From the human T2T-CHM13v2.0 reference genome, Homo sapiens, in assembly GCF_009914755.1 (NCBI RefSeq), contig NC_060928.1: a DNA stretch of 64,000 nucleotides; one strand, given 5' to 3'. This document shows positions 23,145-50,233 of this stretch, piece by piece; within the stretch, counting starts at the first letter, position 1, and each line of letters starts with the position of its first letter. The notes under the pieces were generated by a model. That model saw nothing but the letters and a program-made list of their open reading frames with translations. It was not told where the DNA came from and made no database searches. The position numbers and the translations under genes are program-made.

Positions 23145-25481
23145 TGATATTGTTTGGCTCTATGCCCCCATCAAAATCTCATCTGTAGCTCCCATAATTT
23201 CCATGTGTTGAGGGAGAAACCCATTAGGAGATGATGGAATCATGGGAGCAGGCCTTTCCTGTGCTGCTCTCATGATAGCGAATGGGTTTCACAATATTTG
23301 ATGGTTTTAAAAAACATCTGCACAAGCTCTCACTTTGTCTGCCAACATTCATGTAAGATTTAACTTGCACCCTTGCCTTCCACCATGATTGTGAGGCCTC
23401 CCCAGCCACGTGGAACTGTGAGTCCAGTTAAAAGATCTTTCTTTTGTAAATTGCCCAGTCTTGGGTTTGTCTTCATCAGCAGCATGAAAACAGACGATTA
23501 CAGTAATTTGGTACCAGTAGAGTAGGGCACTTCTGAAAAGATACATGAAAATGTGGAAGTGACTTTGGAACTGAGTAACAGGCAGAGGTTGGAACAGTTT
23601 GAAAGGCCCAGAAAAAGACAGGAAAATGTGGGAAAGTTTGAAACTTCCTAGAGACTTGTTGAATGGCTTTGCCAAAAATCCTGATAGTGATATGGACAAT
23701 AAAGTCCAGTCTGAGGGGGTCTCAGGTAGAAATGAGGAACTCACTGGGAACTGGATCAAAGGTGACTCTTGTTATGTTTTCGCAAAGAGACTGGCAGCAT
23801 TTTTCTTCTGCCCTAGAGATTTGTGGAACTTTGAATTTGAGAGAGATGATTGAGAGTACCTGCTGGAAGAAATTTCTAAGCAGCAAAACATTCAAGAGGT
23901 AACTTGGGTGCTGTTAAAAGCATTTTGTTTTAAAAGGGAAACAGAGCATAAAAGTTCAGAAAATTTGCAGCCTGATGATGCAGTAGAAAACAAACAAACA
24001 AACAAAAAACACTTTCTGAGTAGAAATTTAAGCAGGCTGCAGAAATTTGCATAAGTAACAATGAGCTGAATGTTAATCCCCAAGACAATGGAGAAAATGT
24101 CTCCAGAGAATGGCAGAGATCTTTGTGGCAGCTACTCCCATCACAGGTCTGGAGGCCTAGGAGGAAAAAGTGGTTTCATGGGCCAGGCCCAGGTTCTCTG
24201 TGATGTGTGCAGCCTAAAGACTTGGTGCCCTGTGTTCTACCTACTCCAGCCATGGCTGAATGGGGCCAATGTAGAGCTCAGGCTGTGGCTTCAGAGGGTG
24301 CAAGCCTCAATCCTTAGCAGCTTCCATGTGGTATTGAGCCCAAGAGTGCAAAGAAGTCAAGAATTGACGTTTGGGAACCCCTGCCCAGATTTCAGAAGAT
24401 TTGTAGAAATGCCTGTGTGCCCAGGCAGAAGTTTGCTCTAGGGGTGGGGGCCTCATGGAGAACCTCTGCTATGTCAGTACAGAAGGGAAATGCAGGGTCA
24501 GAACCCCCACACAGAGTCCCTACTGGGGCACTGCCTAGTGGAGCTGTGAGAAGAGGGCCACCATCCTCCAGAACCTGGAATGGTAGATCCACTGACAGCT
24601 TGCACCATGTGCCTGGAAAAGCTGCTGACACTCAATGCCAGCCTGTGAAGCAGCTGGGAAGGAGGCTGTACACTGCAGAGACACAGGGATAGATCTGTTC
24701 TAGACTTTGGGAACCCAGCTCTTGCATCAGTGTTATCTGGATGTGAGACATGGAGTCAAAAGAGATCATTTTGGAGGTTTCAGATTTGACTGTCCTGCTG
24801 GAATTCGGACTTGTATGGGGCCTGTATCCCCTTTGTTTTGGCCAATTTCTCCCGCATGGAATGGCTGTACTTAACCAATGCCTATGTGTCCATTGTACCT
24901 AGGAAGTAACTAACTTGCTTTTGATTTTACAGGCTCATGGATGGAAGAGACTTGCCTTGTCATGGAAGAGACATTGGACTGTGGACTTTTGAGTTAATGC
25001 TGAAATGAGTTGAGACTTTGGGGGAACTGTTGGGAAGGCATGATTCGTTTTCAAATGTGCAGATAGGAGATTTTCAAGGGGCCAGGGGCAGAATGATATG
25101 GTTTGGCTCTTTATCCCTATCCAAACCTCATCTTGTAGCTCCCATAATTCCCATGTATTGTGGGAGGGACATAGTGGGAGATGATTAAATCATGGGAACA
25201 GGTCTTTCCTGTTCTGCTCTGGTAATAGTGAATGGGTCTAACAAGATCTGATGGTTTTTAAAACAGGAGTTTCTCTGCACAAGCTTTCTCTTTTCCTGTT
25301 ACCATCCATGTAAGAGGCAAGTTGCTTCTCTTTGCCTTCCACCATGATTTTGAGGCCTCCTCAGGCATGTGGAACTGTAAGTCCATTAAACCTCTTTTTC
25401 TGTATAAATTACCCTTTATACAGCAGCATGAGAACAGACTAATAGATATCTTTATCAGCAGCATGAGAACAGACTAATAGA
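23145..25481 (+). mobile_element. Full-length THE1 (THE1B-like) MaLR: 5'LTR 23145-23502, internal 23503-25093, 3'LTR 25094-25481
   Basis: Two TGATAT-starting LTRs. The internal region starts gtaatttggtaccag and ends ccaggggcagaa; THE1-int-type peptides appear in the ORF track. Confidence 0.97.
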
Positions 25482-25830
25482 ATGTGTTTCCCATAAACTG
25501 CACCAAGCCATTGGGTAAGCATAATTGGGGGTTTAATGGAGTCCCATTCCTCCAATGCATAGGGCTCCTTTAATGGGAGATTTTGCCTCAAAGATTTTCC
25601 ATCAGACTATCCAAACATTTCTTAGAACTATGTGGCAGTCAAGACTCTTCCTACCCAATTCTCCTTCCTCCCCCTTTTCCTTTGCTAGAGTCATAACTTC
25701 ATCACATTTTGAAGGCTCTTCCTGCTTTCTCTAGCTTCCTTCTCATTCTCCTTCTTAGAATATATCTCCAATAAATTTCTTGCACCTGTATTCCTGACTT
25801 GGCATCTGCTTCTTGGAGGACCCCAACACA
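25482..25830 (+). mobile_element. LTR16-family (ERVL) LTR, 3' part; 5' part probably at ~23030-23144, split by THE1
   Basis: LTR16-like end ccaataaatttcttgcac...cttggcatctgcttcttggaggacccc. Confidence 0.65.
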
Positions 25831-25856
25831 TATCTTGCTATACTTTTTCTTTTCCC

Positions 25857-26400
25857 TATGGCACTAATTTGTGCCCAGGTATTAATTTATAAAGGTGACT
25901 GAGGGAAGACATGGAGTGATCATTACCATTGAAAAAATGATTTTTATTACATACAGTTCCCCAGATGTGGGAGTAAGCTACACCATGCATGTTACAGGAT
26001 GAAATACAAGGCTCAGTCAGGAGGCAAGAGGAGTCAGTGAAAAGCTTGGCCAAGAGCTTTATTGTGTTTTCAGCAAAAAAGGTAAAGCAGAGCAGGAGAA
26101 ACAGCTTAGGATTAGCTAGTTTGAATAATGTCAGCGGGCTCTGGGATATGGGGTGATCAATAGTCATCTGGTACCTGGCACAGAATGATTTAGGGTGAGG
26201 GAAATATTGGCTTAGTGAAAGTTATATAAATGTTTATGGATATAGACTTTTGGGATTGTTGGAGGTTTTGTAATATGATTTTTGTGTTCCCAAAAAGGCT
26301 GAATCACAGGGGAGATGAAAACAACTTTGAGTGTTATTTTGGCCCCATGATTAATGGATGCCAAACAGACAAATACAGAATCTTTAAAAACACAGGACAA
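25857..26400 (-). mobile_element. ERVL LTR of the MER74/MER73/LTR53 group
   Basis: Block ttaggattagctagtttgaataatgtcagcgggctctggg...tctggtacctggc. Confidence 0.65.
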
Positions 26401-26419
26401 GTACACGCTACATTTTATC

Positions 26420-26636
26420 CTAGGTTGGCAAGCTACAGTCCATGGGTCAAATCCAGCTGTTCATCTGTTTTGCAAATGAGGTTTCACTGGAACACAGCCA
26501 TGCTAATCTGTTCATGTATTGTCTATGGCTACTTTCACTACAATGGCAGAGTTCAGTACCTTCAACAGAGACTTAATGGCCTAAAGAGCCTAAAATATTT
26601 CTTATCTGTCACTCAGCAAAAATTGCTAACACCTGT
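26420..26636 (+). mobile_element. MER58A hAT-Charlie MITE
   Basis: ggtcaaatccagc, tggaacacagccatgc, tattgtctatggctactttc, aagcctaaaatattt-like end. Confidence 0.85.
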
Positions 26637-26899
26637 CCTAGCCTACCGTATCATTTAATATATTTAATATTTTAAATGATATTTATAATTTATAAATATT
26701 GATAAAAAATATTAATACATTTAATGTTCATTGTTTGTTGTCTGATTTTCCCCAATTGAATGTAAGCTGTGCTGCTGTATGACAGATATATTGTTTTGTT
26801 TTTTTCACTAATACATGTCAGAAATCCATATTGGTACTTGGCACTTAATAGGAATGGAATCAATATTTACTGGTGAATAAATGAAATTAAAAAAACTAA

Positions 26900-27080
26900 A
26901 TCTGAACTCTTTATATAGAAATTATGTTCTGTGAACAAGTCTCCTAGCCATTACAAATATCAGTTTTCTCATATAATAATAGGGCTTTGCACATACAGTT
27001 AGTTTAGGAAACGAATGATATGGAAAAAGAAAAAAGGTAATGCATTCATGTATATGGTGAGCATTGAATAAATGTCAGAT
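26900..27080 (+). mobile_element. MIR SINE
   Basis: tcagttttctcatataataatagg...gcattgaataaatgtcag. Confidence 0.55.
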
Positions 27081-27870
27081 ATTTATTACATAAGAGAAAG
27101 TACTAAGTTTCATTTTTCTGTCTAGTGGTAAAAATCTCAGCTTACTAAGTGTTAATCCATGTGTGTACACTAGTGACTTGTTTTAAAAAAATGTATAGGT
27201 TTTATCTAAAGCAGGGTTAATATTTTTTATCTTTCCCACTGGGTATTGAAAAGACAGATGAGATTATATTTATAAGAGTACAAAATGTTGAAGGATAAAA
27301 AATGCAATATGAATTTAGATCATTTTTATTCTTTTAAATTCAAATAAAAATCAAGTAAGAAGATAACAATCTCCTTGTGTTTTACTGTTCATATGTAAGG
27401 TGTTATAAGAATAATTGGATTTGGCATATTTGGTGAAGCAGTTGAGCCATTTATAAGCTTTACAATGATATTTGAATTTTTTTTTAAAGTCGTAGAAGCT
27501 AGGCTTCTATTTATATTTCTGGGAGTTTCAATCTCCATTAGCAGATATATCAGATCTTCTATAGATAAAACAACTCAGTTTAAGCAGATTTGGGAAAAGG
27601 GCATTTTTTTTCCCACAATACCCACAAAAGTCTTAGGAAGCTAAAATTGTGTATCTGGTGTTTGTGTTCGGATTAGTACAATTTCTTTCTCTTCTTGTTC
27701 ATTTCTACTTCTTGTCACTACATTTTGCATCTCTTGCACTTCAGCCATCCTTCTGATACTGTATTTGTCAAATTCATGAATTAGATTCTGGACCCCATGT
27801 TGAATGATAATTCTCAATTCCTACTTTACTTCATCTCTCAGAAGCATGTAAAATGGATAATCATTACCAA

Positions 27871-28166
27871 TTTTTTATTTTTTATTTTTGAGATGGAGTC
27901 TCTCTCGTCACCCAGTCTGTAGTGCAATGGCACTATCAGCTCACTGCAACCTCTGCCTCCCGTGTTCAAGAGATTTTCCTGCCTCAGACTGCAGAGTAGC
28001 TGGGATTACAGGCACCTGCCACCACACCTGGCTAATTTTTGTATTTTTAGTAGAGAAGGGGTTGCACAACATTGGCCAGGCTGGTCTTGAACTCCTGATC
28101 TCATGATTCACCTGCCTTGGCCTCCCAAAATGCTGGGATTACAGGCATGAGACACTGCCCCTGGCC
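27871..28166 (-). mobile_element. Full-length AluS inserted in an L2 fragment
   Basis: Alu dimer; TSD tacca(a)ttttt at 27865 and 28167. Confidence 0.95.
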
Positions 28167-29142
28167 TACCATTTTTACCTTCACATTTGAAATCATACCC
28201 TCTCTGTTTTAGTCTTATTTCCCTGGATACTGATTCTCTTTCTTCCTAAGTGCTGTCCTCTCTCTGCCCACCTCACAGGGTCCAGCACACCCTCTTTCTT
28301 CTTGTTTTAAACCCTCTCCTTTTGGTGTGTTCCTGTGACTTTAGTCAACATTCATGTTCTGATGACTTTCAAAATCTCTTGTTCCATTTGAGATCTATTT
28401 TCTGAGCTCCAAGCACTTATTTAAACATTCATGTAGAAAAAGATGAGCATTTGCACCTGAAACTCAACCTTTCTAAATTGAGATAAGGTTTTCACTCAAG
28501 GAAATTTCTTAATATTCCTATATTTTTGTCTTAGTAAATGAGATGATTTACCTCTCATTTTTAAGGCAAGCAATTTGGAAGTCATCTTAGATAACTCTTT
28601 CTTACTATATAAAATGTACACTTTTAAAATAAATGAATAAAAGAATAAAATGAACACTTTTTAAAGCTGTCTACTTCTCTCCCTCTCCATTGCTACTTTT
28701 CTACTCCATACATCATTGTCTTTTTCATGGATTATTAAAATACTCTTTGTTATCACAGAAGCCAGGCTAATTCTCTTTCATGTACAGAGATGTAGAATAA
28801 TTTGTGGCAGACATCTGGTAAATATTCTAATCATTCACCCTTAAAATATCTCTGTTTGTGTTATCTAACAAATCCCCATATATTATTATTCTGCTTTAGA
28901 TTTGATTTAGGTTTTTATTTATATATAGCTTAAATTTAGTTTGTTTTTTAGAATTAGAATATATTTTATTAGATATTAACTCTAATTAAGATTTAGATTA
29001 CATGTAGTGTCAGATATAGATTTCATATTGCTTTTTCTAATTACTGCTAATAGGAAGGTTGAAAATCTTCTTAAATATTTATTTGTTTGTGTATCTACTT
29101 CTGATAAATGCCTGTTTAAATTCTTTCTCCAAGTATCTATTG

Positions 29143-29439
29143 CCAAGGTTCTCAAAATTTTGGTCTCAAGATCCTTAACACTTAAATAAATTTTGAGAAT
29201 TCTGAAGCACTTTTGTTTATGCTAGTACTATATACCAATATATATGCCAAATAAGATATTTTAAAAAGAAAATATTTAAATTCATTTAAGAGTACAAGAA
29301 TATTTTCATAAAAATATTTTTTAAATATAAAATGAATGAGAAGAGTGGCATTGCTTTACATTTTTGAAAATCACTATAAGTTTGACAATGGAATACAGCT
29401 AGAAAAATTTTATATTTGCTTCCATATTTAGTCTGTTGC
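29143..29439 (-). mobile_element. Charlie1a hAT transposon, 3' end
   Basis: ggttctcaaaattttggtctcaagatcc...cttttgtttatg...tgagaagagtggcattgctttacatttttg matches the reverse complement of the Charlie1a 3' terminus. Confidence 0.8.
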
Positions 29440-31505
29440 TATATTAGTTTATTTTCACACTGCTAATAAGACATAACTGAGACTGGGCAATTTACAAAAA
29501 AAAAGAGGTTTAATTGGACTCACAATTCCACATGGCTGGGGAGGCCTCACAATTATGGCAGAAAGCAAAGAGGAGCAAGTCACATCTTACATGGATGGCA
29601 GCAGGAAAAATAGAGAGCTTGTGCAGGGCAATTCCCATTTTTAAAACCATCAGGTCTTGTGAGGCCCATTCACTATCAGGAGAACATCATGGGAAAGACC
29701 AGCTCCCATTATTCAATCATCTCCCATCAGGTCCTTCCCACAACATGTGGGAATTATGGGAGCTACAAGATGAGATTTGGGTGGGGACACAGCCAAACCA
29801 TATTATTACACCTCTGGCCCCTCCCAAATCTCATATCGTCATGCTTCAAAACCAACTGTGCCTTCTCAACAGTCCCCCAAAGTCTCAACTCATTTCAGCA
29901 TTAATTCAAAAGTCCATAGTCCAAAGTCTCATCCAAGACAAGGCAAATCTCTTACACCTATGAGCCTGTAAAATCAAAAGCAAGTTAGTTACATCCTAGA
30001 TACAATGGGGGTACAGGCATTTGGTAAATACTGCCATTCCACATGGGAGAAATTGGCCAAAACAAAGGGGCTACGGCTCCCATGCAAGTCCAAAATCCAG
30101 CAGGGCAGTCAAATCTGAAAGCTCCAAAATGATCTCTTTTGACTCCATGTCTCGCATCAAGGTAATGCTGATGCAAGAATTGGGTTCCCAAAGTCTAGAA
30201 CAGCTCCACCCCTATGGCTCTGCACTGTACAGCCTCCCTCCCAGCTGCTTTCATGGGGTAGTGTTGAGTTTCTGCAGCTTTTCCAGGCATGTGGTGCAAG
30301 CTGTCAGTGGATCTCCTTTTCTAGGCTCTGGAGGATGGTGGTCCTCTTCTCACAGCTCCACTAGGCAGTGCCCCAGTATGGACTCTGTGTGAGGGCCCCA
30401 ATTCTACATTTTCCTTCTGTACTGCCATAGCAGATGTTCCCCATGAGGAAATCACCCCTACTGCAAACTTCTGCCCGGGCTTCCAGGCATTTCTATACAT
30501 CTTCTAAAGTCTAGGCAAAGGTTCCCAAACCTCAAATCTTGAATTCTGTGCACTCTCAGTCTCAACAGCACATGGAAGCTGCCAAGGCTTAAGGTTTGCA
30601 CCCTGTGAAGCCATGGCCCAAGGTCTACACTGGCCCCTTTCAGACAAGGCTGGAACAACTGGGATGAAGGACACCAAGTCTCTAGGTTGCACTCAGCATG
30701 GAGAACCTTGGCTTGGCCCATGAAACCACTTTTTTCTCCTCGACCTCCAGGCCTGTGATGGGAGGGGCTGCCACCAAAGTCTCTGACATTCCCTGGAGAC
30801 GTTTTCTTTACTGTCTTGGGGATTAAGATTTGGCTCGTCATTACTGATGCAAATTTCTGTCGCCAGCTTGAGTTTCTTTTCAGAAAGCGAGGTTTTCTTT
30901 CCTATTGCACCATCATGCTGCAAATTTTCTGAACTTTTATGCTCTGTTTCCCTTTTAAAACAGAATGCCTTTGAAAGCACCAAGTCACCTCTTGAATTCT
31001 TTGCTGCTTAGAAATTTCTTCCACCAGATATCCTCAATCATCTCTCTCAAGTTAAAAGTTCCACAAGTCTCTAGGGCAGAAGCAAAATGCTGCCAGTCTT
31101 TTTGCTAAAACATAACAAGAGTCACCTTTCATCCAGTTCCCAGTGAGTTCCTCCTTTCCACCTGAGACCACCTCAGCTTGGAATTTATTGTCCATATAGC
31201 TATCAGCATTTTAGGCAAAGCCATTCAACAAGTTCCTAGGAAGTTCTAAACTTTCCCACATTTTCCTGTCTTCTTCTGAGCCCTCCAAACTCTTCCAATT
31301 TCTACATGTTACCCAGTTCCAAAGTAGTTTCCACATTTTTGGGTATCTTTTCAGCAATGCCCCACTCTACTGGTACCAATTTACTTTATTAGTCTTTTCA
31401 TGCTGCTGATAAATATATACCTAAGACTGGGTAATTTACAAGAGAAAGGGGTTTAATTGGACTCAGTGTTCCACATGGCTGAGGAGGCCTTGCAATCATG
31501 GTGGA
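29440..31505 (-). mobile_element. THE1 (THE1B-like) MaLR: 3'LTR 29440-29805, internal 29806-31384, 5'LTR truncated at 31505
   Basis: Antisense LTR-int-LTR. The right LTR stops abruptly after about 120 bp at caatcatggtgga. Confidence 0.96.
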
Positions 31506-31559
31506 CCATTGTCAGACTCTCAGTTAATCTTTCCTAGATGTAGACAAGGAAAGGCCTTG

Positions 31560-32489
31560 TCCACTTCCCACCCACCCACCCAGGGCTGGAATGTATTATA
31601 TATTTAAATATATTTCTTGGTTTATTCACTAGAACTGACTATAGGTTTCTTGGTCTAGAATTCTAACAATATTCAGCATTCTTTTACTAAGTACCTTCTG
31701 CCATTAATATACTATTAATACAAGCCAAAACATTGAGGACCTATAGGAATAAAAAGGAGAAAAGCAGATCATCTATTAAGGTTTCTTAAAATAAGAAATT
31801 AGAAGTGTATATAAATACATATATTAATGATAGTGTAGATGGTTGAGGATACTTGTTTCTGATGTCTTTTTATCTCTTTCATCAATTGTCATCATTCTCT
31901 TCTTTAAATTTTCTAAAATAATGTTCTTAAATTTCTCAATATTTAACATTTTATACATTCATGGAGTTAATTGCAAGAGAAAGATAGTGTCATATTGTGA
32001 TTAATCATAAAAAAAGTATATTTGGTCTTTGTACAGTTTCCTGGCACACAACTCCTAAAACTCTTGTGATAAGCATCTTTGTGTATGCTAATAAATGTGC
32101 GTTTCTGGATAGCCTCAGGATGAGGACTCATTGCCAGGGGAACCAGCCATATGATCAGAGGGTTGGAATTTCAGGCCCAGCCTCTGACCTCTAGGGAAGA
32201 GAGAAGGACAAGGAGCTAGAGGTTGTGTTAATCCCCAATGTCCAATAATTTAATCAATCACCACTATATAATAAAGTCTCCATAAAAAGCCAAAAGGACA
32301 GGGTTCAGAGTGATTCTGGGTTGGTGAACATATGAAGGTGCTAGGAGCATTGTTCTTGCATAATGTGTGGAAGCTCTTTGCCTCTTCTTTCCTTTTTTTG
32401 CTCTATGCATCACTTCCATCTGACTGTCCCTCAGTTTCATGTGTTTATAATAAACTAGTGATCTTGTAAGTAAAGTGTTTTCCTGAATT
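31560..32489 (+). repeat. Inverted repeat arm A (930 bp)
   Basis: Reverse complement of 34696-35628, aligned by eye end to end. ORFs 31997+ and 34939- give near-identical peptides. Confidence 0.98.
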
Positions 32490-32862
32490 TTATGAGCTAT
32501 TCTGGCAAACGATCAAACCCAAGTTGGTATTTGTGAAAACCTCCAATTTATAGTTGCTCAGTCTTAAGCATGGGTGACAACCTGAACTTGGGAATGGTAT
32601 TTGCAGTGGGATGGGGCAGCAGTTCTGTGGAACTGAGTCCTTAGCCTATGGGACCTACCATTATCTAACAATGAATAGTATCTGAATTAAGTTTAATCAA
32701 AGGACACTCAGGTGACATCTGTGGAAAATTGGAGAACTGAGTTGTGGGAAAGATACCCATACAGCGGAGAGATACCCATGACACTCAGAGACGTGTCATG
32801 GAAGTATTGGATGTATAATAAGAAAAACAGAGTTTTTTTTTTTTTTTTCTTTAGTTGGTGTC
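31988..32862 (+). mobile_element. MER21-type LTR (MER21B/C-like)
   Basis: tgtcatattgtga...tatatttggtcttt...tttcctggcacacaactcctaaaa start. It continues across the inner end of arm A to ttggtgtcag. Confidence 0.8.
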
Positions 32863-32921
32863 AGTTTAAGTAAAAGCAGTTATTTTTTTGGTTACTTTTA
32901 AAAATAAAATTGCAGATGGTC

Positions 32922-33543
32922 CAATAGTTCTCCATGTGTGTGGTCCAAAAGGTCTAAACTATTGTCATAATAATAGTAAAACTCATTTTATTTTTCACTC
33001 TGTGATAGTTGCACTGATGGTACAAAGGCAATGGTGAGTAAAGCTGCTGGTGTTTTATTACGGTAGCATTCCACTGTACAAGTGTTTATTTTAGTCTTTG
33101 CTGCCACAAATGCACAGAAAATATAGTGCTATTTTCACTTAAAAGTGTTCTTGAAGAAAAAAATTACTAAATATCAACCCCTGAGTACGTGACTTTGTAA
33201 AATAGTCTCTGTGAGAAAATGGTAAAAACAACAACCAAAAACCCCACAACTTTTCTACTGCCTACCAATCAATAATTTTTACACTATCTCTCAGAAAACC
33301 ACTTAAGTACATGCTTCAGTTGTGAGTCACATTAGCTTTTTCAATGTAACAACATATTTAATGAAACTGATTAACAGATAAACACTGGCTATTTACAATT
33401 CGATTATTTGGCAGACGTTTTCTTGAAAATAAACAAGGAAAACCTTTCATGATGAGAAAAATGGCTGACATTATTATTGCCAATTAAAAATTCAAGTGTG
33501 TAAGCAAAAATTATAAGATCGTAAAACCTGTATCTGCCCCTCA
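32922..33543 (+). mobile_element. Charlie1a hAT transposon, 5' part (short pieces resume at ~34132-34187 and ~34658-34695)
   Basis: tgtggtcc...aaactattgtcataataat...ttgcactgatggtacaaaggcaatggtgagtaaagctgctgg matches the Charlie1a 5' end. Confidence 0.8.
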
Positions 33544-34131
33544 TGTATTAGTCAGGGCTCTCCAGAGGGAGAGAACCAATAGAATATATGTGTACATATA
33601 TATATATATAAAATGAATTTATTAAGGAGAATTGGCTCACATGATCACTAGGTGAAGTCCCACAGTAGTTGGTCTGCAAACTAGGAAAAAGAGAAGCCAG
33701 TAATGGCTCAGTCTGAGTCTGAAAGGTTGAAAACCAGGGAAGCCAGCAGTGCAGCCTTCAGTCTGTAGTTAAAGGCCTGAGATCCCCTGACAAACCACTG
33801 GTGTAAGTCTCAAAACCCAAAGGCTGAAGAATCTGGAGTCTGATGTCCAGGGGCAAAATAAGCAGAAAGAAACAAACAGCACAGAAAAAGGAGGAAGTCA
33901 GAAGGCCCCACAAGCAAAGTTATCCCTCTATCGTCCACCTGCTTTTTTCTAGGCATGCTGGCATGGATGGTGCCCACCCACGTTGAAGGCGGTCTTCCTT
34001 TCCCACTCCACTGACTCAAACGTCAGTCTTCTCTGGCAATACCCTCATAGACACACCCATAAACAATACTTTACCAGCCACCTAGACATCATTCAACCCA
34101 ATCAAATTGACATCTAATATTAACCATCACA
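33544..34131 (-). mobile_element. MLT2 solo LTR (HERV-L; MLT2A2-like)
   Basis: tgtattagtcagggctctccagagg...(TA)n...caaattgacatctaatattaaccatcaca. Confidence 0.92.
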
Positions 34132-34187
34132 CACCATATGCTTCATACTTTTTCAACATATAAAGAGTTTACTGATAAGTTTGGTCA

Positions 34188-34657
34188 TGAGAAGAAAATA
34201 GGTTTTAATTTGAAGTATGCAAATTCCTTTAAATATCAGATCCAGGGAGGCATTTAAAATGTGACAGCACTCATGCATCACTCCCACCTTGAGCTAAGTA
34301 ATTACTTCTTGAAGACACTTGCTATATGAGTGTATATTAGATTAACAGATGCCAAGTAACCATAAAATGCCATGTATGCTGGACATCATAACTCATATCC
34401 TATAGTTTAAAAATACATAGCCAATCATTAATCAATGTTATCTCTACAAACCAATGAGAATTCCTGTCAAACAACCTTGTATCAGCCCACTCCTGGTTTC
34501 CTTTTGCCTGTAAAAACCAGCTTGTAACAAAGGCTGAATGGAGAACTCCCCCAGGCAACATGGAAATGTGTCCTTTCTGGGCAGCTGTTCTCATTTTGGC
34601 TGATGTAAACACTTTAAAATTATATTTTCTGCCTCAACTTCTTCCATTAGGTCAACA
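34188..34657 (+). mobile_element. Solo LTR (LTR47-like)
   Basis: TG...CA ends (tgagaagaaaa / taggtcaaca); cctttaaatatcag, ttgagctaagtaattac, CCAAT boxes. Confidence 0.7.
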
Positions 34658-34695
34658 TTTCTAGTAGGAATAGATATGATTACTTCATGTTATAT

Positions 34696-35628
34696 AATTC
34701 AGGAAAACACTTTAGTTACAAGATCACTAATTTATTATAAACACATGAAACTGAGGGACAGTCAGAAGCAAGTGATGCATAGGGCAAAAAACTGAAAGAA
34801 GAGGCAAAGAGCTTCCACATATTATCCAAGAACAGTGTTCTCCCGGCACCTTCATAAGTTCACCAACCCAGAATCACTCTGAACCCTGTCCTTTTGGCTT
34901 TTTATGGAGACTTTATTATATAGTGGTGATTGATTAAATTATTGGACATTGGGGATTAACACAACCTCTAGCTCCTTGTCCTTCTCTCTTCCCTGGAGGT
35001 CAGAGGCTGGGCCTGAAATTCCAACCCTCTGATCATATGGCTGGTTCCCCTGGCAATGAGTCCTCATCCTGAGGCTATCCAGAAACGCACATTCATTAGC
35101 ATTCACAAAGATGCTTATCACAAGAGTTTTAGGAGTTGTGTGCCAGGAAACTGTACAAAGACCAAATATACCTTTTTTTATGATTAATCACAATATGACA
35201 CTATCTTTCTCTTGCAATTAACTCCATGAATGTATAAAATGTTAAATATTGAGAAATTTAAGAACATTATTTTAGAAAATTTAAAGAAGAGAATGATGAC
35301 AATTGATGAAAGAGATAAAAAGACATCAGAAACAAGTATCCTCAACCATCTATACTATCATTAATATATGTATTTATATACACTTCTATTTTCTTATTTT
35401 AAGAAACCTTAATAGATGATCTGCTTTTCTCCTTTTTAATCCTATAGGTCCTCAATGTTTTGGCTTGTATTAATAGTGTATTAATGGCAGAAGGTACTTA
35501 GTAAAAGAATGCTGAATATTGTTAGAATTCTAGACCAAGAAACCTATAGTCAGTTCTAGTGAATAAACCAAGAAATATATTTAAATATATAATACATTCC
35601 AGCCCTGGGTGGGTGGGTGGGAAGTGGA
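34696..35628 (-). repeat. Inverted repeat arm B (933 bp), including a 5' MER21 copy cut at 34696
   Basis: Reverse complement of 31560-32489. Confidence 0.98.
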
Positions 35629-35780
35629 GAGCAGGAGTTGATATGAGTTAAACCATAACATATTGTTAACAAACTTACAGAAGATAGTGCCAAGCATAGT
35701 GGGGGAGTTTGCCTGTTAAGACAAATAATAAAAATAACTCTTTATCTGTACTAGATAAGCATAAATAAAAATGATGCAAA

Positions 35781-36117
35781 TGCACGAAATAAAAGTATTT
35801 CACCCAAAATATACCTCTTTAACATTTTGAGATGAGTGTTCAGAGAGCCAGCAAACAGAAGTACCCCTGCAAAGCTGTCTTTTGTGGGGGAGATTTGCAT
35901 CTATAGAGAAAATCTGCATTGATGCAGTCAGGCTTTCTCCCAGGCCTTTCCTTGTCTGCATCTAGGAAAGATTAACTGAGAGTCTGACAACTTTAAAGGT
36001 CTGAAAGAAATGCTTACCCTCTATTCTCTCTGAGAGCTGTTACCTATGAGATTTTATCTACACAACAGGCCACCTTTCCTTGTCAAGCCTATTCCTTTCC
36101 CCCTCCTGTTTTGTCAC
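35781..36117 (+). mobile_element. ERV1 MER4-group LTR, 5' half (LTR49-like)
   Basis: tatttcacccaaaatatac...ccctgcaaagctgtcttttgtgggggagatttgcatct. Confidence 0.75.
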
Positions 36118-36589
36118 TGCAAAACAAAAAGTATCTGAGACAGCTCTCAATCAATTTATAGGTTTATTTTGCCAAGGTTAAGGATCATGGCCTATGACAC
36201 AGGCTCAGAAGATCCTAAGACTATGTGCCTAAGATGGTTGGGTTGCAGCTTGGTTTTATACATTTTAGAGAGAAAGAAGCTAAGGCAAAAATATAAATTA
36301 GTACATGTAAGGTATACATTGGTTAGGACCAGAAAATGGAATATCTTGGAACAGGGGGCTTCCTTGTTATAGGTAAATTCAAAGATTTGCTGATTGGCAA
36401 TTGGTTGAAAGAGTTAAGCTCTGCATGAAGAGTTAAAGTCAGCTTGAGTTAATATAAGAGGGGCTATGGAAGCCATGGCTCTTGTGATGTAGATGGAGCC
36501 TTCAGGTAGCAAGTTTCAGAGAGAATAGATGGTAAATGTCTGTTATTGGGCCTTAAAAGCGTCAGTCTCTCCAGAAAAGATCTAGTAAG
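36118..36589 (-). mobile_element. MER4 (D/E-like) LTR, left piece
   Basis: aaaaagtatctgagacagctctcaatcaattt...tttattttgccaaggttaagga is the antisense MER4 3' end. Confidence 0.88.
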
Positions 36590-39500
36590 TGAGAACATCA
36601 GAGGAATCCAAATGCCTAGGCAGATAGGGGAGGGTCCATGGTGAAATCCCACCTTCAAGCCAAAAACAGCCTGAAGGCTAAAAGTCCAGACTGCTGGTAC
36701 CAGATGAAATCCACTACCCACAGTGAAAACTTCTGTTCCTGTTTGCCTGCCCTTTCTTAATTGATTCTTTCTCAATAATGCCTTTTAACCAATCAAATGT
36801 TGCCTTTGTCAATACTACCTATGGCCTGCCCCTCCCCTATTCTGAGCCCTGGACCCAGCTACGTGAGGAGGAGAGAACCACCCAACTGCAGGGGCCCACA
36901 CCCTGCATCCCCCTCTCCACTGAGATCTTATTGTCTGCTCTCCTTACTCTTCAATGTTCAGTATATTCTTATCCTTCTTGGGCATAGCACAAGAGCTCAG
37001 GAACTGCTGAACGTGGGTACAAGATATAAGACAGGCAAGTGAGGGCATGCCAGTGTGGCTGAGTGGGACCTCGGCAGGGCATCACCAACTGGAGATCCCC
37101 AGCTTGCAAAGTCACCGAAAAGAAAATCTTGCATCATTTTGCCGGCTCCTGTGGGATACCTGAAGGGTGAGCGAATGCAGACCTAAAATCTTCACTTATT
37201 TCCGAGGCTTCTTGTCCTCAGACATTTTTCTGAAGGCAGATGAAGCACTGGACCTCTGATTAGCTAGTTAAGAGCAATGGCACAGCTACAGTCCTTTGGA
37301 CCCCACCTCCCCATCTCTCTCGGGGGCTGGGAATGTCGACCTCCTTCCAATCCAGTTTTTTCTATGGCATTTTTTCTTCCTTTTTTTCAGGGCTGTCATG
37401 GCCCTTATCCCTTCTTTTACAATGTTAGGAGTGTTGTTGCCAACTACAGAGATATTACTGGGTGAAATGAACATTCATCCCAGCCATCAGATATGCAATT
37501 CAGAACAATGTGGTTTCTGTCTATTCTTAGAGGCAAAGAGGAAGCAGAGATTAAAAGTTTCTCTCTCAGTTGGAGGAACCCAGTTGCATAGAGCAAGAGG
37601 CTTTTTCTTTCAGGCACCTTCACCACCCTGCACTTAAGCTGGCTTTTTATTGTCTTTTCTCCACCATGTCAAGAGTTAACACTGCCCTATGAATACAGGG
37701 AGCTTTTCTATGCAAAAGGTGTTTTCTGTTTGTTTGTTAATTTTTATTGATTTCTATTTATTTATTTACTTATTTAACCTTTTGAAAGGCATATTACTAG
37801 GCCAGGACCCCAATTCTCCCTTCCCCTTGTTTGAGGAGGATCCAGTTCCACAGCTTTATCTTAGCATTGGACTTAATGATAAGGAAGAAGTGAAGGAGCA
37901 GCCCCGCCAGCTGCTGGCTGCAGTCTGGTGAGGGACACCTGACATTTAATTTAATGAGTCCATAAACCCTCCTGAAGCACCTTCTTGCCCCAAACTTAAT
38001 TCCAAGCTTCAGGTTGAAGTCCTAGAAAGGGAAACTAGATCTGAGGGATCCAAAGGCAGGCACAATGGAAGTCAAGGGGCACTGCACAGGTGAGCATGAC
38101 TAATTTCTGCTGATTAGTCCCCCTGCCCTGACATTTTATGAGTAGATGTCATGCTAGCATCCATGGCATAGATGAGGTTACTGACAGCAGGGAGCATAGG
38201 CCAGCACATAGGTGTGTGTGAATATTTTCTACCCTCTATGCCTCCCCATTAACATGGGTGAAACCCAAGCCAGATTGTCACCCATGGGCTGTACCTTGCT
38301 GAGGTTGCTGGGACCTGGGCCTATAAAGACAGAAAAAAGAAAGGGATTGCCTTATCTTTTTCTTCCTCATGTACCTCGGGTATTTACTGGGAGGAAAAAA
38401 GAACTAGGAGATGGCTTTTTCCCCTCTTTCTGGATGGGTAATTGGCCATCTTCTATCTGTACTTCTCTTGCATATATCCTGAATCACTGGAACCCTTTGG
38501 AAATCAAATCAAAACAAAACAAAACAAAACAAAAACACCTACTTTTTTATTTTCCTCCTATGTCTTATCTTCGTAGATGGATAATTGTGTCCCAGTACCA
38601 CAGGACACTACCCTCAGAAGCATCCCTCAAACTGGGAAATTTAATTTTCCCACACCTTAAACTCTGGCTTAAAATGTACTGGGAAGAAATTACAGATCTA
38701 ACTGAGAAAATTTCTTGAGGGCAGACAACTTTTACAGTATGAAAAAAACCTCTTTCTCTGCTTCCTTTTCACAGGACTCCAGGGTAGATAAGACTCCATA
38801 TCTCGGGACAAGGGAACCCAGAAGCCTGACATGCTGGAAAAGGTTAAAAGTTTTTTGTTGTTGTTGTTTTGTTTTGTTTTTGTTTTTGTTTTACCAGACT
38901 TCTGAACTCTCTCTCTCCCTATGCAAACTAGTAAAAGGAATGGTAATGATGACTATTTATATCCTCTCTAAAGTTTCGATTAATGGAATAAAGGATTTGT
39001 GAGGCTAGTCTTAAGCTGTAGTGGATCTGTTGTACTTTTTGCTAATATTTGTCTTTCTGTATCTTTCTATCAAAAAGATCATTCCCTCAGGATAGAATGT
39101 GGGCTTAGGACCCCATAAGCCCACTGTTCAAGCCAGATCAGCAAACCGTCAGTAACAAACTTTGCTACAAATCTCCATCTTGTTTTACATTCTTGGGAGT
39201 TTGACCTTGTAACCATGTGGCAATACTTTCTTTTGGTTTCTGCCATTTTACAATGATGGCCCAGGTTCAATCCTGGCTTAGGGAATGAGTACATCCTGGT
39301 TAATATCTGTGTGACTTTTGCCATTTGCTCATTCTCTTCCCCTCCGTGAACAACTTCTAGATTCCTTTCTTAAATCTTCCTTTCTCTGGGCTACATTTAA
39401 AGTTTCTAGATTTTGTAAAAACTGCTTACCACCTCTTTGAAAATAGCTTGTACACTGGCAGTTAAGTAATAACCTTAGTTGAGGTTTGTTGATTTCACCT

Positions 39501-42500
39501 GTGAGGTTACTTTTGGTGATTTTCAAAAGCCAGAAATATGGCTGTTTGGTGTGGTTGAAGTCGGGTAATAAGGGATTTATGCGGATTTTTTTTTCTTTTA
39601 AAGAGCACTATGGTTAAAAGTCAGCTTAATTAAAAGTGGATATACAAGCTATAGGTATATTCAAAAGACCCTTATGTTTTTTCTTCTCAGGACTTGTTTT
39701 TCTGGAAAAGGATATTTTCTCAGTTGACTGAATTATTTTTTTCCATTTTGTCTTGCCATTCTTTTTGCACACATGAGAGGCCCAAGATAACTTCTGATAG
39801 CCTGAGACTTCTTGGGAAAAACTTTACCAAGAGGACACCAGTTATCCCATTTTGGGCAAAAAAAAAAAAAACTGTTTTCCTCATGGAACCCCAGGAATTG
39901 AAAGCAGATAAGATTCCTCTCAAAATCTGTTTGTCTTCCAGCTAAGTCTGTTGGGCCCTCAAAGCTGCATGCTTTCCTAGTCCTGCTTTTTGAAGGACTC
40001 CACCCAGAGGCCAATAATCCAATTAGGAGGTTGGCAAATGAAAAATCTTATAACTACTGGATCTTCTTCTCTCTGTCTGTGTAATCATACATGTGTTATG
40101 TGTGTAATGTTTGTATAAAAAAGAGCTCTAATTAATTGGCTTAAAGAAAATAAGTGCTTAGATCAAATATTTTTGAAGGAAAAATAAAAGCGGTAATGTC
40201 TTTTCGTTCATGTGACGTTAATCTTTGAAAGATAAAAACAGTTTTAGATATGATTCATAAAGCAAAATGTCATCAGAATGTAAATATGTGGTCTAAATTA
40301 TGCAGGTGAGACACTGGGTTTGCTAAATGTTTTAAGGTTATAAACTGCTTCTTCAGCTTTTGAGAACTGACTCACCTGCTTTACAATTTGTAAGGCCTGG
40401 GAACATATGGAATTAACCACACCCCTAAATATGCTGGAAATAGTCGGGCTTTATCTGTGCTTAGTACGTAATTAAGATAACTTATCAGTTTTACATTAAA
40501 ATTAAAAATTGCTAAGAGTTTTGAGACTACTGAAAATAGCTTTACATGCAAGGTGTGTAAGAAAAGTAAAATGTGTTTTTAGTAAAATATTATAAGGAGA
40601 TATGGAAATAGGAATGTAAATTTTTGCCTAATTTAGAGGTTTAGAGGGTTGTTTTAAATTAGATAAGATAAAGCTAAAGATTTAAATAAGTTGTGGAAGG
40701 TTTGTAAAAATTAATCTTGCAAAAGAAATTCTGTGTGTGAACATTTTGACTCAATTATAATAGGTATTATATAGTTTTTCCATAAATTGAGTGTTGAAAT
40801 GAAAGAACAACAAGGTTTTTTAAGACACTGATCTGCTCTTTAACAGAAGTTATAAAGGGTTATAAAATGTTTATAAGAATCTCACCTCATAGTCAAACTA
40901 GTTAAGTTTGGATAGAATTATCTTAGGTTTCATTAAAAAAAATTGGGGTTGACATTAATAGTTAGACAAATGCAAGGGTGAAATTTGGCTTTCTCTCCAC
41001 TGAACAAGATTTTGATGTAATAGTGAAAAATAATGACAGTTTTTGTTTGCCTTGTGAATAAACTGCCGAAAAAGGGAAGGGAGAAATAGGAGACAGATTG
41101 TTTGGAAAGCTAAGTCTTCCTATTAATGAGTAAAACGTTTTTGCCTTTTAAAAAATTTTTGAGTCACCATTTTGGCTAAACAAATTACTTTATGGTAATT
41201 TGAAATTCCAATTCATAATATCAGTGTTTTAACCTCTTACATATTTAATAAACTTCCTAAAATCAAACTTATTTTCAAGGTTGTTTTTTCTGACCCCTAA
41301 CTTTTGAATGCTATAGAGGGCCCCTGGAGCATCCAAACAAGAGGTAAACAGGATTATTTGGCATGGGATTGCCAATATAAAAAGAATGTTTAATCTTCTT
41401 TAGGTTATATTTTGGTGAATAATATTAATACATGTTCCAATATTGTTATGGGATTTTAAAAATTCTACTGTCTGAGAATATGCTATCAACTATGATTAAG
41501 GTTATTATGTTAAGTTATTGTAAACCACAGAAATAACCAAATTTATTTGTCCATTTTGTTTTTAACTGTAACTACCCTGGACATTTTGACATTCACAGAC
41601 AATTGTTGTCTTGTTTTGTTCCTCTTCAAAAGATGGTTTATAATCACCTATAGAACTTTGCCAGGTGCTCTTAAATGCAGGTTTCTGATAGCCTTGAAAA
41701 CTGTGACATTGGAATAGAGAAATAACATACAGGACTCATGAAGAGCTAAAATGTTTATGAATATCAAGCAGAACAAAAGTTAACTGAATGGACTGAACTG
41801 ACAGAAAACTGAAGTAATCTTTTTAACTTTTTGCTGAAAACATTGCTGATCCTTGTTTTGCTTTTCAGAGTCAAAGAAACTTTTCTTTTTAGTTATCTAC
41901 AGCTTTTAACAATTGAGCCAGGTAACCATTTGTGAATAAAATTTGTAGCCTATTTGTTTCTCTCTGCCTGGTTTCTCCAGAATTTGGAAACTACTGTTGA
42001 GTATTCTTAATTTATGGTGATATAGTCATTTGCATAAGTGCAATAAGAATCCATTTTCTTTTGTGACAGGACACGATTGGAGAAACTGGTTGTTTTTACC
42101 AAGGCTTTAACTGGAAGGGTATGCTTCCCTTTAAGGAATCAAGGTTGACTTGCAGAGCCAATAAAAGCCCCTTGGGAATATTCACCTCATATCTTGTCTA
42201 CACAGTCTCCTTATAGGTTTCCTAACCTGTGGTGAGTAAAGTATGTCAATTTCTAACAGCCCCAGGAGCCCCATGTTATCTTGGGACCTCCAGAAGTGTG
42301 GAATTTACCCAACTCACAGATGTTTGAGGGTAAAAACCCATGACTGCATTTGTTTTTAAAAAGTCTTATGTGAGATTCCTTATAGAACAGAGTTTCATCA
42401 AAGCCAATTTAAAAAGCCTATGTAAAAAATAATTATTCTTGCTGCACTTTATGGAAATTATCAAGCCAAGGATAAGAAAAAAGTTTATTATGCAAACAAC

Positions 42501-43480
42501 TGAGTCCTATCATAATTTGTATTTACAAAAATGAACACTGGAGAGAGAAAAAATATATTTCAAAACTTATACACTTGTCATTAAATTTCCATCTCATTAG
42601 TTGTTTTTAAGTTTTTGCCTACATTTTAAACTAACTGTGCTTATTCCTGTGAACCAAACTGTAATCTCTGGCTGCAGCTCAGAAAAAAACAAAAGGGATG
42701 GGCCATCAAAGTGCAAATGATAATGCAACCAGAGCTTTGGACGATGGCTCTTTTTTACTGGGGACCTTTACACAGGCCTCTGAGGAAGATCTGACTGACA
42801 TTTTCCCAAAACAGTGCCCCTTATTGGCAAGAAGCAGTTAAGATTTGTCTTTGTCCTTGTTCTAATGGCAATTTTATGTACCTCTTCAGAAGGGGGAAAT
42901 GAGATTGGCAGGAGGCAGCCAAATGCCTATGCAGATAGGGGCAGGTCCCCAGTGAAGCCTCACCTTCAAGCCAAAACAGGCTAAATGCTGAAAGTTTGGA
43001 CTTCTGGTCCAGGATCAAACCTATGACCCAGAGTGAGAACTTCTGTTTCTGTTTACCTGCCTTTTTCCAATTGATTATTTCTGAATAATGCATTTTAACT
43101 AATGGAATATTGCCTTTTCCCATACTACTCATGGCCTGCCCCTCTCCTATTCTGAGCTCATAAGAAGCCCTACACCCAGCCATGCTGGGAGGAGAGAACC
43201 ACCCAACTGTGGGGTTGGAGGACCATGCCCCTGTGTCCCTTCTGTGTTGAGATCTGTTCCGTCACTCAACAAAATTCTCTGCCCTTCTCATATTTCAGTT
43301 TCCAGCTTATTCTCATTCTTCTTGGATGTGGTACAAGAGTTCAGGAACTACTGTACATGGATTCAAGCTACAACACAGGTGAGTTGGGGTATGCCAGCAT
43401 GGCCAAGGGGGTCCCAGGTGAGGTTTTGCCAGCCACAGGTCCCCAGCTTGCAAAGTGACCAAGAAGAAAATCCTTCATTG
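36590..43480 (+). mobile_element. Non-autonomous ERV1 provirus with MER61-like LTRs (5'LTR 36590-37136, 3'LTR 42900-43480)
   Basis: Homologous LTR pair (ccaaatgcctaggcagataggg...caccttcaagccaaaa); PPT agaagggggaaa before 42900; 4-bp TSD taag (36586-36589 and 43481-43484); AT-rich MER4-group internal region with no intact ORF. Confidence 0.9.
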
Positions 43481-46800: not shown

Positions 46801-47918
46801 AAGAATGTCACTTGTTAACACTCCCAAGATCTGCAAGATATTTTAGAAACTTAAGATTTTTTTGTGACCTCGAGATAAATGGAATTCACCCAGTTTGAAT
46901 AGGTATCACAGGCACAATCTAGTGGCAAAAATTTCTCTTGGATTTTTGGCCTTGAGGGGCTTTTAAAAGTCTAATCTGGTATTTCTTATGAAAAAGTTCT
47001 AGAAAAGCCGGTTGAAAACAGTCTATATGTTCAATTACTATTTTTGATGTACTTTATTAAAAAAAATCAGACCAAGTATAATAAAACTAAAGCTTATTTC
47101 AAAAATAAATTGGTATTAATATGTGCTGAAAAAATGGGACTGGAGGGAGAAATATTATGTTTTGGAAAAAAAAAACAACTAAATTACACCTATTATTAGA
47201 TTATAGTCCTAATCATTGTTTTTGAGTTGTATTCTTTGCCTATAATTTGGGCTGAATTCTTTCCTGGGTACAAATGTCCAAACTAATGTGTTCAAAATTT
47301 CCTCCCAGTTTTCTCACATGAAATCACTAGAAATTAAAACTTTGATTTTTCTGAAGCCCTGCAAACTAAAGCTAGACAACTTAATATAAACTTAGCAGAG
47401 ATCACTATAACAGCTTATATATAAACAGCCTTCATGCCTGTTGATGTGTGAACTACTCAAGAAGTTTATTTGAACATCTGATTCAAACTACAGTTCAAGA
47501 AAAATCTTTCAAATTACCACTGCAATCTGAAGAGATTTCAGAAACTCTACAAAAACTAGTTTATATACTAGTCCAAACATTAACTTTCAGTTTCCTTCTG
47601 TTTCCATAGAATTGCTTCTTATAAAACATCTGTTTGCCTGCATGATATATAAAGGGCTAGCCCATCTACAATGTCACCTCCTGGATGGGACACAGCTGTT
47701 CAGCCAAACTGATGTATTCTCAGCACTAGGAGACTGATTCAAGCAGATATGAGATAATACACTTAAATTTGTTCTTGTCTTCTATTCCATTTTTTTCCCT
47801 TCTTACGCCTAGGTTTTTTTTTTTTTTTTTTCTAAGAACCTCTAATCCAAATCTTTCCACAGTAATGAATCAAGTCTTTTATGTGTGAAACTTCTAGGAA
47901 AATTTCAGATAGGGTGAA
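43813..47918 (+). mobile_element. MER4-group ERV1 internal sequence (5'-deleted)
   Basis: Collinear similarity with the 40-42.6 kb internal region (e.g. ttttaccaaggcttt, aagaatgtcact); ends in a PPT-like tract before an LTR. Confidence 0.8.
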
Positions 47919-49955: not shown

Positions 49956-50118
49956 ATTTCACATTTCCAATGAAGTATTTCAGTCATGTCTTCTTCTTGT
50001 TGCTTCCAGAAAAAGAAATAACTTTAAATAATTTAGAAATCCCATCTTCAAATTATGCTTTTCTCAAGATTTGCTACCTTTATTTGCTTTATTTCAGCTT
50101 AGCAGTCATGCGTTAATC

Positions 50119-50233
50119 TAAGTTTACCAACCATGCTGTTTTTCTTGAGACTGAGGAAATTTCCTGGACAGAGTTCTTTCAGTGCTAAAATTAGGAAACT
50201 CCTAGGCAAAAACAAGGATGACTGGTCACTCTA
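50119..50233. mobile_element. MER81-like hAT-Blackjack MITE
   Basis: gactgagg...tttcagtgctaaaa...ggatgactggtcactcta. Confidence 0.7.

What the first reader, a model, noticed from the sequence alone, without database searches (positions are those of the whole stretch)
31501..31560. 49-bp templated insert at the left breakpoint: multi-step template-switch scar
Seen: the THE1 LTR ends abruptly at 31505, followed by cca, then 31509-31557, which equals the reverse complement of 35942-35990 (48/49 match, inside the LTR49-like LTR), then tg, then arm A. Established: short nearby-templated junction inserts are hallmarks of FoSTeS/MMBIR or Pol-theta end joining. Inference: one event with three switches (31505 to 35990; 35942 to 35628; end of spacer back to 34696) would explain the deletion, inversion and duplication together, and it must postdate THE1 and that LTR.
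Basis: partly seen in the sequence, partly recalled or inferred. Interest (0 to 1): 0.7.

Follow-up and report, generated by a model that had tools for sequence, protein, structure and literature searches.

The report
Inverted-copy scar at old DNA break
A 49-base stretch on human chromosome 4 is a back-to-front copy of DNA 4.4 kb away and sits in line with a 934-base inverted duplicate; it likely marks an old repair of broken DNA that deleted, flipped and duplicated non-coding sequence, an ordinary kind of scar in a stretch with no annotated gene.

Summary
31509-31557 is the reverse complement of 35942-35990 (48/49); a genome-wide scan finds no third site within 3 mismatches, and insert and donor share two bases that 0 of 27 other copies carry. 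The reading needs three changes. (1) The 49-mer is not a Pol-theta-type junction insert: it is collinear with arm A, the tip of one inverted copy (35990 to 34696) that lacks 313 bp. (2) The linker 'tg' fits a fold-back insertion (7-bp hairpin, 3-bp priming, 2-bp resolving microhomology; background 2.3%); 'cca' only weakly. (3) The arms have two ages: outer 770 bp differ by 1.0%, inner 160 bp by 7.5-9%, on both arms. Either one old three-switch event was followed by gene conversion (0.45), or a young copy landed on an older short inverted duplication (0.3); a later 313-bp deletion is also open (0.15). No ape or monkey sequence was reachable, so this is undecided. The class (deletion-inversion-duplication) is known; the locus was absent from the three inversion tables I could read. 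No gene is annotated in the window. Low interest.

The parts
29441..31505 (-). LTR retroelement (THE1-type, name recalled) whose right LTR (about 31381-31505) is cut after about 125 of about 363 bp; left side of junction 1
   Evidence: the rest of that LTR is not found in the window; its two LTRs match at 101 of 124 bases
31506..31508 (+). Junction 1 linker cca; with its flanks it forms ACCAT, the inverted repeat of ATGGT at 31498-31502 (possible fold-back, weak)
   Evidence: 5-bp inverted repeat, background 10.4% at random positions; fold energy -1.1 kcal/mol
31509..31557 (-). 49-bp inverted copy of 35942-35990; distal tip of the inverted copy that continues as arm A
31543..31561 (+). Junction 2 hairpin: GACAAGG (31543-31549), 5-nt loop, CCTTGTC (31555-31561); priming CCT, inserted TG, resolving TC
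   Evidence: 1 of 16 possible dinucleotides gives 7 bp, background 2.3%; -6.4 kcal/mol with DNA parameters
31560..32329 (-). Arm A, outer block: inverted copy of 34858-35628, 8 differences in 770 bp (1.0%), first 150 bp identical
32330..32493 (-). Arm A, inner block: inverted copy of 34692-34857, 15 differing sites in 164 bp (12 events in 160 bp with doublets merged and the junction site left out)
32494..34691 (.). Single-copy spacer, 2198 bp; continues the old LTR-like repeat of arm A, then an old DNA transposon interrupted by later insertions and cut at 34698
34692..34698 (+). Junction 3: the transposon matches to 34698 and arm B starts at 34696, giving 3 bp of microhomology (6 of 7 with one mismatch)
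   Evidence: (clear in 1 of 5 copies, p 0.009, 22/29 before and 8/29 after; suggestive in 1, p 0.094; not seen in 3)
34696..35628 (+). Arm B, inferred original copy
   Evidence: continuity with 35629 onward is inferred, not shown (one search found no old repeat across 35628)
35629..35941 (+). 313 bp present after arm B but missing from the inverted copy (the skip at junction 2)
35942..35990 (+).

Best explanation
The 49-mer is an inverted copy of 35942-35990 that lies in line with arm A, and it likely formed with arm A in one replicative repair event that deleted, inverted and duplicated this region, after which gene conversion likely homogenised the outer 770 bp of the arms. Steps: a top-strand end at 31505 (shown: break; inferred: short fold-back adding cca) invades at 35990 and copies leftwards 49 nt (shown: identity and orientation); the end folds back on itself, adds TGTC and re-anneals by TC 313 bp further along the same template (shown: hairpin and microhomologies; inferred: order and enzyme, Pol-theta-like); it copies arm and spacer for about 3.1 kb and returns by 3-bp microhomology to 34696 (shown: microhomology; inferred: same event). 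Lost in the event: at least 238 bp of the left LTR and the rest of the DNA transposon (shown absent from the window). Inferred age from the inner arms: 6-9% pairwise, younger than the left element (18% between its LTRs over 124 bp). The spacer may since have been flipped by recombination between the arms; one genome cannot tell.
For: Unique local donor. Same orientation and order as arm A, 313 bp beyond its end. Both linker templates lie left of their junctions, none of 5 bp or more on the right within 40 nt, which fits one left-to-right strand. Old repeat continuous across arm A/spacer in 26 of 28 copies, so junction 3 is at arm B's start. One deletion explains both truncated elements; neither remainder is in the window, and 35629-35780 does not continue the transposon (shuffle p 0.84-0.90 in 4 of 5 copies, 0.04 in 1). 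Inner-arm changes fall on both arms (4 on A, 6 on B where both alignments agree), as expected after long separate evolution. The divergence step (32296-32342) lies next to a 2-bp indel and a double change. Conversion needs a few hundred similar bases and is more frequent at short distance (PMC3924837 passages). 18 of 45 human inversions carry small deletions or insertions ascribed to single FoSTeS/MMBIR events (PMC6748972 passage).
Against: The 49-mer cannot be converted across a 313-bp gap, so it should show the old age, yet it has 1 difference where 3.7-4.3 are expected (P of 1 or fewer 0.06-0.11; two-age versus one-age likelihood ratio 2.6). The outer 150 bp are identical right up to junction 2. 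A toy conversion model gave the observed block pattern in at most 2.3% of 300 runs in each of 24 settings (pattern defined after seeing the data). Mammalian conversion tracts are usually a few hundred bp and rarely over 1 kb (PMC3961182 passage). Junction 1 shows at most 1 bp and junction 2 no direct microhomology, which is weak for pure MMBIR. Junction 3 rests on 1 clear copy of 5. No outgroup sequence was seen.
Confidence: 0.45

Rival explanations
1. Two events of different age. An old inversion of the spacer left a short (at least 160 bp) inverted duplication and junction 3. Much later a break left of it was repaired with one end guided by that old homology: 770 bp plus the 49-mer were copied from arm B's side and joined to the cut LTR by fold-back end joining. 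Junctions 1 and 2 would then be young (about 1%, near the human-chimpanzee level, recalled figure).
For: Sharp step from 1.0% to 7.5-9% (Fisher p 3.5e-7; change-point permutation p 0.001); outer 150 bp identical to the junction; 49-mer differs at 1 of 49 like the outer block (ratio 2.6); conversion model rarely gives the pattern. Long-tract conversion ended by microhomology joining with template switches and short inverted or duplicated pieces is shown in mouse cells (PMC5104497 passages).
Against: Needs two rare rearrangements at one place; a 160-bp, roughly 92% identical repeat is a poor substrate for homologous pairing (established knowledge); the likelihood ratio from the 49-mer is small; no human-chimpanzee inversion is listed here, though this model predicts a deletion-duplication difference that those tables would not list.
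Confidence: 0.3
2. The first event copied the whole 1.3 kb (35990 to 34696) inverted; a later, separate 313-bp deletion in that copy, repaired by fold-back end joining, left the 49-mer as a remnant. There is then no template switch at junction 2.
For: The 49-mer and arm A are collinear. Junction 2 has the features of fold-back insertions at plain deletion junctions: span 7 bp, priming 3, resolving 2, template within 20 bp on the retained side (PMC11541566 passages).
Against: An independent deletion of this size within a given 1.3 kb is rare (my estimate from recalled rates, about 1% or less), whereas extra switches near a junction are common in complex events; the same fold-back can occur during second-strand fill-in of one event.
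Confidence: 0.15
3. One young event, with the inner-arm differences made by a burst of error-prone synthesis next to junction 3.
For: More changes on arm B than A (6 against 4) and 7 of 13 substitutions are transversions (P 0.10).
Against: Four changes, including a 2-bp loss, are on arm A, where 0.9 are expected for a young copy (P 0.012); the 4:6 split is compatible with even (p 0.75).
Confidence: 0.04
4. The 49-mer is an independent insertion (Pol-theta capture of a distant piece, or a fragment of another copy of the LTR family), unrelated to arm A.
For: It lies between two short linkers, as captured pieces do.
Against: No other genomic site within 3 mismatches; two private bases shared with the local donor; orientation and place 313 bp beyond arm B's end would be a coincidence.
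Confidence: 0.03

Closest known systems
delINVdup class of complex structural variants (Collins et al. 2017, PMC5338099; passage seen)
   Same: Inversion with a deletion at the left and a duplication at the right breakpoint.
   Different: Seen here in a reference genome with no polymorphism record found; small (about 4.5 kb); the duplicate has an internal 313-bp gap and two blocks of different age. If the spacer was flipped later, the original class is an inverted interspersed duplication into a deletion (iDUPdel in the same passage).
Fold-back (snap-back) templated insertions of Pol-theta end joining / SD-MMEJ (PMC11541566, PMC5728401; passages seen)
   Same: Junction 2: priming 3 bp, inserted 2 bp, resolving 2 bp, span 7 bp, primer repeats 5 nt apart, template on the retained side.
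   Different: Applies to the 2-bp linker, not to the 49-mer. Junction 1 reaches only 5 bp. The enzyme cannot be tested.
FoSTeS/MMBIR-type human inversions with small deletions or insertions (PMC6748972; passages seen)
   Same: Several nearby switches that join deletion, inversion and duplication.
   Different: Little direct microhomology at junctions 1 and 2; single-event origin not shown; not known to be polymorphic.
[quoted passage not shown] 2016, PMC5104497; passages seen)
   Same: Homology at one end, microhomology joining and short templated pieces at the other; tract of about 1 kb. Fits the two-age rival.
   Different: Shown in a mouse cell reporter with long perfect homology; here the homology would be about 160 bp and diverged.
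Inversions that recur by recombination between inverted repeats (PMC6748972, PMC3961182; passages seen)
   Same: Arms of 934 bp at 97.4% fall in the reported range (over 90% identical, from 654 bp).
   Different: No record of this locus in the tables read.

Membership tests
Pol-theta fold-back templated insertion: junction 2 linker | Template span of at least 7 bp including flanking microhomologies | tested here: met
   7 bp, 31555-31561 against 31543-31549; threshold from PMC11541566
Pol-theta fold-back templated insertion: junction 2 linker | Priming and resolving microhomologies of 2-3 bp; template within 20 bp on the retained side | tested here: met
   Priming CCT, resolving TC, template 8-14 bp left of the junction
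Pol-theta fold-back templated insertion: junction 1 linker | Template span of at least 7 bp | tested here: not met
   5 bp only; background 10.4%
Pol-theta templated insertion: the 49-mer itself | Short template (typically under 10 bp) within about 20 bp of the break | tested here: not met
   49 bp; donor 4.4 kb away now, at least 3742 bp away before the event under the best model
Pol-theta end joining | Dependence on POLQ | not testable with these tools
   Fossil germline event
FoSTeS/MMBIR complex rearrangement | Several template switches in cis to nearby sequence | tested here: met
   Three junctions within 4.5 kb, all pieces local and unique
FoSTeS/MMBIR complex rearrangement | Microhomology at the junctions | tested here: inconclusive
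   Junction 3: 3 bp; junction 2: only through the fold-back; junction 1: at most 1 bp
FoSTeS/MMBIR complex rearrangement | All junctions arise in one event | tested here: inconclusive
   Two divergence blocks in the arms; needs outgroups
delINVdup | Deletion at the left breakpoint | tested here: met
   Left LTR cut at 31505 and transposon cut at 34698; remainders not in the window; sequence outside the window was not searched for them
delINVdup | Duplication at the right breakpoint, copies inverted | tested here: met
   Arms A and B, 97.4%
delINVdup | Spacer inverted relative to the ancestral allele | tested here: inconclusive
   Inferred from the repeat that runs through arm A into the spacer and from parsimony; continuity of arm B with 35629 onward not shown
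Recurrent inversion between inverted repeats | Inverted repeats over 90% identical and at least about 650 bp | tested here: met
   934 bp, 97.4%
Recurrent inversion between inverted repeats | Both orientations found among humans or apes | tested here: inconclusive
   Not among the 10 chr4 rows of the T2T table, 44 sample columns, nor in two human-chimpanzee lists; small events can be missed

The most novel reading that the evidence does not exclude
A two-stage fossil: an old 160-bp inverted duplication served, tens of millions of years later, as the landing site for a one-ended homologous repair that copied 770 + 49 bp with a fold-back skip and joined a cut LTR. The second step would be recent enough (about 1%) to be specific to African apes or humans. 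It would be a natural germline case of non-canonical termination of homologous repair, and it would have built a 934-bp inverted repeat able to flip the spacer.
Probability: 0.3. Interest if true: 0.4.

Novelty: new member of a known kind. Interest (0 to 1): 0.25.

Why it matters
Little for function: no gene or functional element is annotated in the window (hub annotation). As a mechanism record it is a clean, testable example: it shows that an apparent 'templated insert' can be the tip of a longer inverted copy, that a fold-back signature can survive in a reference genome, and that arm identity can misdate such an event by up to eightfold. If the two-age reading is right, it is a germline instance of a repair route so far shown in cell reporters, and a small lineage-specific rearrangement that ape assemblies can date in one alignment.

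Tried and rejected
Another family copy as source of the 49-mer: rejected. A second, unrearranged paralogue of the region: none among 5 matches for 35380-35840. Arm B as a simple insertion after an unflipped arm A and spacer: disfavoured, because 35629-35780 does not continue the transposon and two coincidences are needed; not excluded. A distant template for cca: a 9-mer at 29383-29391 matches, but 0.43 such matches are expected by chance. A templated piece at junction 3: no match of 12 bp or more for 34640-34700 within 25000-42000. Target-site duplication of the left element at the spacer end: not seen by eye. One-sided error-prone synthesis: changes are on both arms. Polarisation dropped 4 of 14 inner-arm differences (32342, 32350, 32392, 32393) as alignment-dependent or unresolved, and 32490 as the junction site. 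Catalogues: absent from PMC10150506 supplement 2 (30 of 31 'chr4' hits seen), PMC1270012 Table S1 (no row starting at 57-61 Mb, control term found; the place in that older assembly is my recalled estimate) and PMC2603318 Table S1 (2 chr4 rows). Uninformative: PMC6748972 supplements (0 hits for chr4, 12 of 18 files); PMC12058530 supplement (scanned); search for LINC02494 (0 papers); three papers not held. Unseen supplements of ape-genome and pangenome papers may list this locus.

Full report
Observation. The window (human T2T-CHM13 chr4, by the hub's note) shows at 31509-31557 the reverse complement of 35942-35990, 48 of 49 bases. It follows an LTR element that breaks off at 31505 and the letters cca, and is followed by tg and arm A (31560-32493), an inverted copy of 34692-35628 at 97.4%. 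None of the 40 other rows extends past 31505. Repeat names (THE1, LTR49-like, MER21-like, DNA transposon) are recalled; no repeat library was at hand.

Source of the 49-mer. A DNA search ranked the local donor first among 40 scored of 125 candidates. Over the 27 best other loci the top ungapped score is 45/49, and two bases shared by insert and donor (31509 T, 31540 G) occur in 0 of 27. A pattern scan of the whole genome with up to 3 mismatches returns only insert and donor, with 0 control hits. The donor's own best relatives reach 89% over 81 bp, apart from one 66-bp match at 91% and two at 90%.

What the 49-mer is. Read along the top strand, the new DNA is the reverse of 35990 to 35942, then of 35628 to 34696: one direction, one order, with 313 bp left out. 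So the 'insert' is the tip of the same inverted copy as arm A. It does not fit Pol-theta junction inserts, whose templates are typically under 10 bp and within 20 bp of the break (PMC11541566, passages); the donor was at least 3742 bp away under the best model.

Linkers. At junction 2 the last bases of the 49-mer, the tg and the first bases of arm A form CCTTGTC, the inverted repeat of GACAAGG 5 nt upstream; 1 of 16 possible dinucleotides gives 7 bp, and 2.3% of 3000 random positions do; the hairpin folds at -6.4 kcal/mol. This is a fold-back insertion with 3-bp priming and 2-bp resolving microhomology, as defined in PMC11541566 and PMC5728401 (passages). At junction 1 cca is part of a 5-bp inverted repeat, which 10.4% of random positions reach: compatible, not significant. 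Both templates lie left of their junctions, which fits a top strand extended left to right.

Junction 3 and the deletion. An old LTR-like repeat runs from arm A into the spacer: 26 of 28 family copies align across 32493. Arm B therefore starts in the middle of that repeat. The spacer ends in an old DNA transposon interrupted by later insertions. In an anchored test on five copies, one follows the window to 34698 (22/29, p 0.009) and then departs (8/29), one is suggestive (p 0.094), three show nothing. Arm B identity starts at 34696, giving 3 bp of microhomology. The missing parts of the left LTR (at least 238 bp) and of the transposon are not in the window, and 35629-35780 does not continue the transposon. 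One deletion on the left explains both cuts; this is inference, and continuity of arm B with 35629 could not be shown.

Two ages in the arms. The outer 770 bp differ at 8 sites (1.0%), the inner 164 bp at 15 (9.1%; Fisher p 3.5e-7), or 12 events in 160 bp; the step lies at 32296-32342 (permutation p 0.001). Counting which allele 28 family copies carry, from both alignments, gives 4 changes on arm A (32343, 32359, 32402, a 2-bp loss) and 6 on arm B (32330, 32365, 32416, 32418, 32455, 32470); 4 differences were unresolved and left out. Four changes on A are too many for a young copy (P 0.012), so the inner block is old. It is younger than the left element, whose LTRs match at 101 of 124 bases. 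The outer block is either converted or young. For conversion: it needs one rare event instead of two, the step sits beside an indel and a double change, and nearby repeats of this length convert (PMC3924837, passages). For a young copy: the first 150 bp are identical up to junction 2, the 49-mer has 1 difference where 3.7-4.3 are expected at the inner rate (P 0.06-0.11; likelihood ratio 2.6), a toy conversion model gave the pattern in at most 2.3% of runs in 24 settings, and tracts are rarely over 1 kb (PMC3961182, passage). One-ended homologous repair finished by microhomology joining with complex breakpoints is shown in mouse cells (PMC5104497, passages). I put one old event plus conversion at 0.45, two ages at 0.3, a later 313-bp deletion at 0.15. 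These weights are my judgement and rest partly on recalled rearrangement rates.

Comparison with what is known. The layout is the delINVdup class (PMC5338099, passage), or an inverted interspersed duplication into a deletion if the spacer was flipped later. Inversions with small deletions or insertions ascribed to FoSTeS/MMBIR are common, 18 of 45 in PMC6748972 (passage); short fold-back inversions at breaks are also described in yeast (PMC11724301, abstract and outline only). The arms are in the size and identity range of recurrent inversions, but the locus is not among the 10 chr4 rows of the T2T inversion table (PMC10150506 supplement 2; v1.1 coordinates, taken as equal to v2.0 on chr4 by recall), nor in two human-chimpanzee lists. 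None of nine paper searches listed a paper on this locus, judged from titles and abstract starts; only aimed at the locus itself, and several key supplements could not be read, so absence from print is not established.

Verdict. A real, unique, locally templated copy; a new member of a known kind of complex rearrangement, in a stretch without annotated genes. Interest 0.25.

Noticed in passing
window 23145-25414 and 29441-31505: A second element of the same LTR type lies 4 kb upstream in the opposite orientation, 83.4% identical over 2039 bp: an older, longer inverted pair next to the rearrangement.
   Followed up: partly
window 25414-25481: A 35-bp tandem duplication (1.9 copies, 96%) at the end of that second element's LTR.
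   Followed up: no
window 9015-9326: Tandem duplication of about 155 bp, 86% identical (9015-9174 and 9169-9326).
   Followed up: no
window 35978-36045 and 36504-36571: A 68-bp inverted similarity (71%) between two related LTR pieces; the donor's end at 35990 lies inside the left piece. Could be chance or could have exposed the invasion site.
   Followed up: no
window 34188-34657 and L067 (G000:C4:62030552-62030994): The best genomic relative of the LTR in the spacer (79%) lies about 128 kb upstream on the same chromosome; no target-site duplication was evident for this LTR.
   Followed up: no
window 36601-37134 and 42912-43478; 41763-42267 and 46298-46829: Two pairs of direct repeats of about 530-570 bp at 71% and 68%, possibly LTR pairs of old elements right of the donor.
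   Followed up: no
window 49957-50142 and 50643-50845: An inverted pair of about 190 bp at 76%, 500 bp apart.
   Followed up: no
window 31541-31542: The one mismatch in the 49-mer falls where family copies vary as a decayed CpG would, so it dates the copy poorly.
   Followed up: partly
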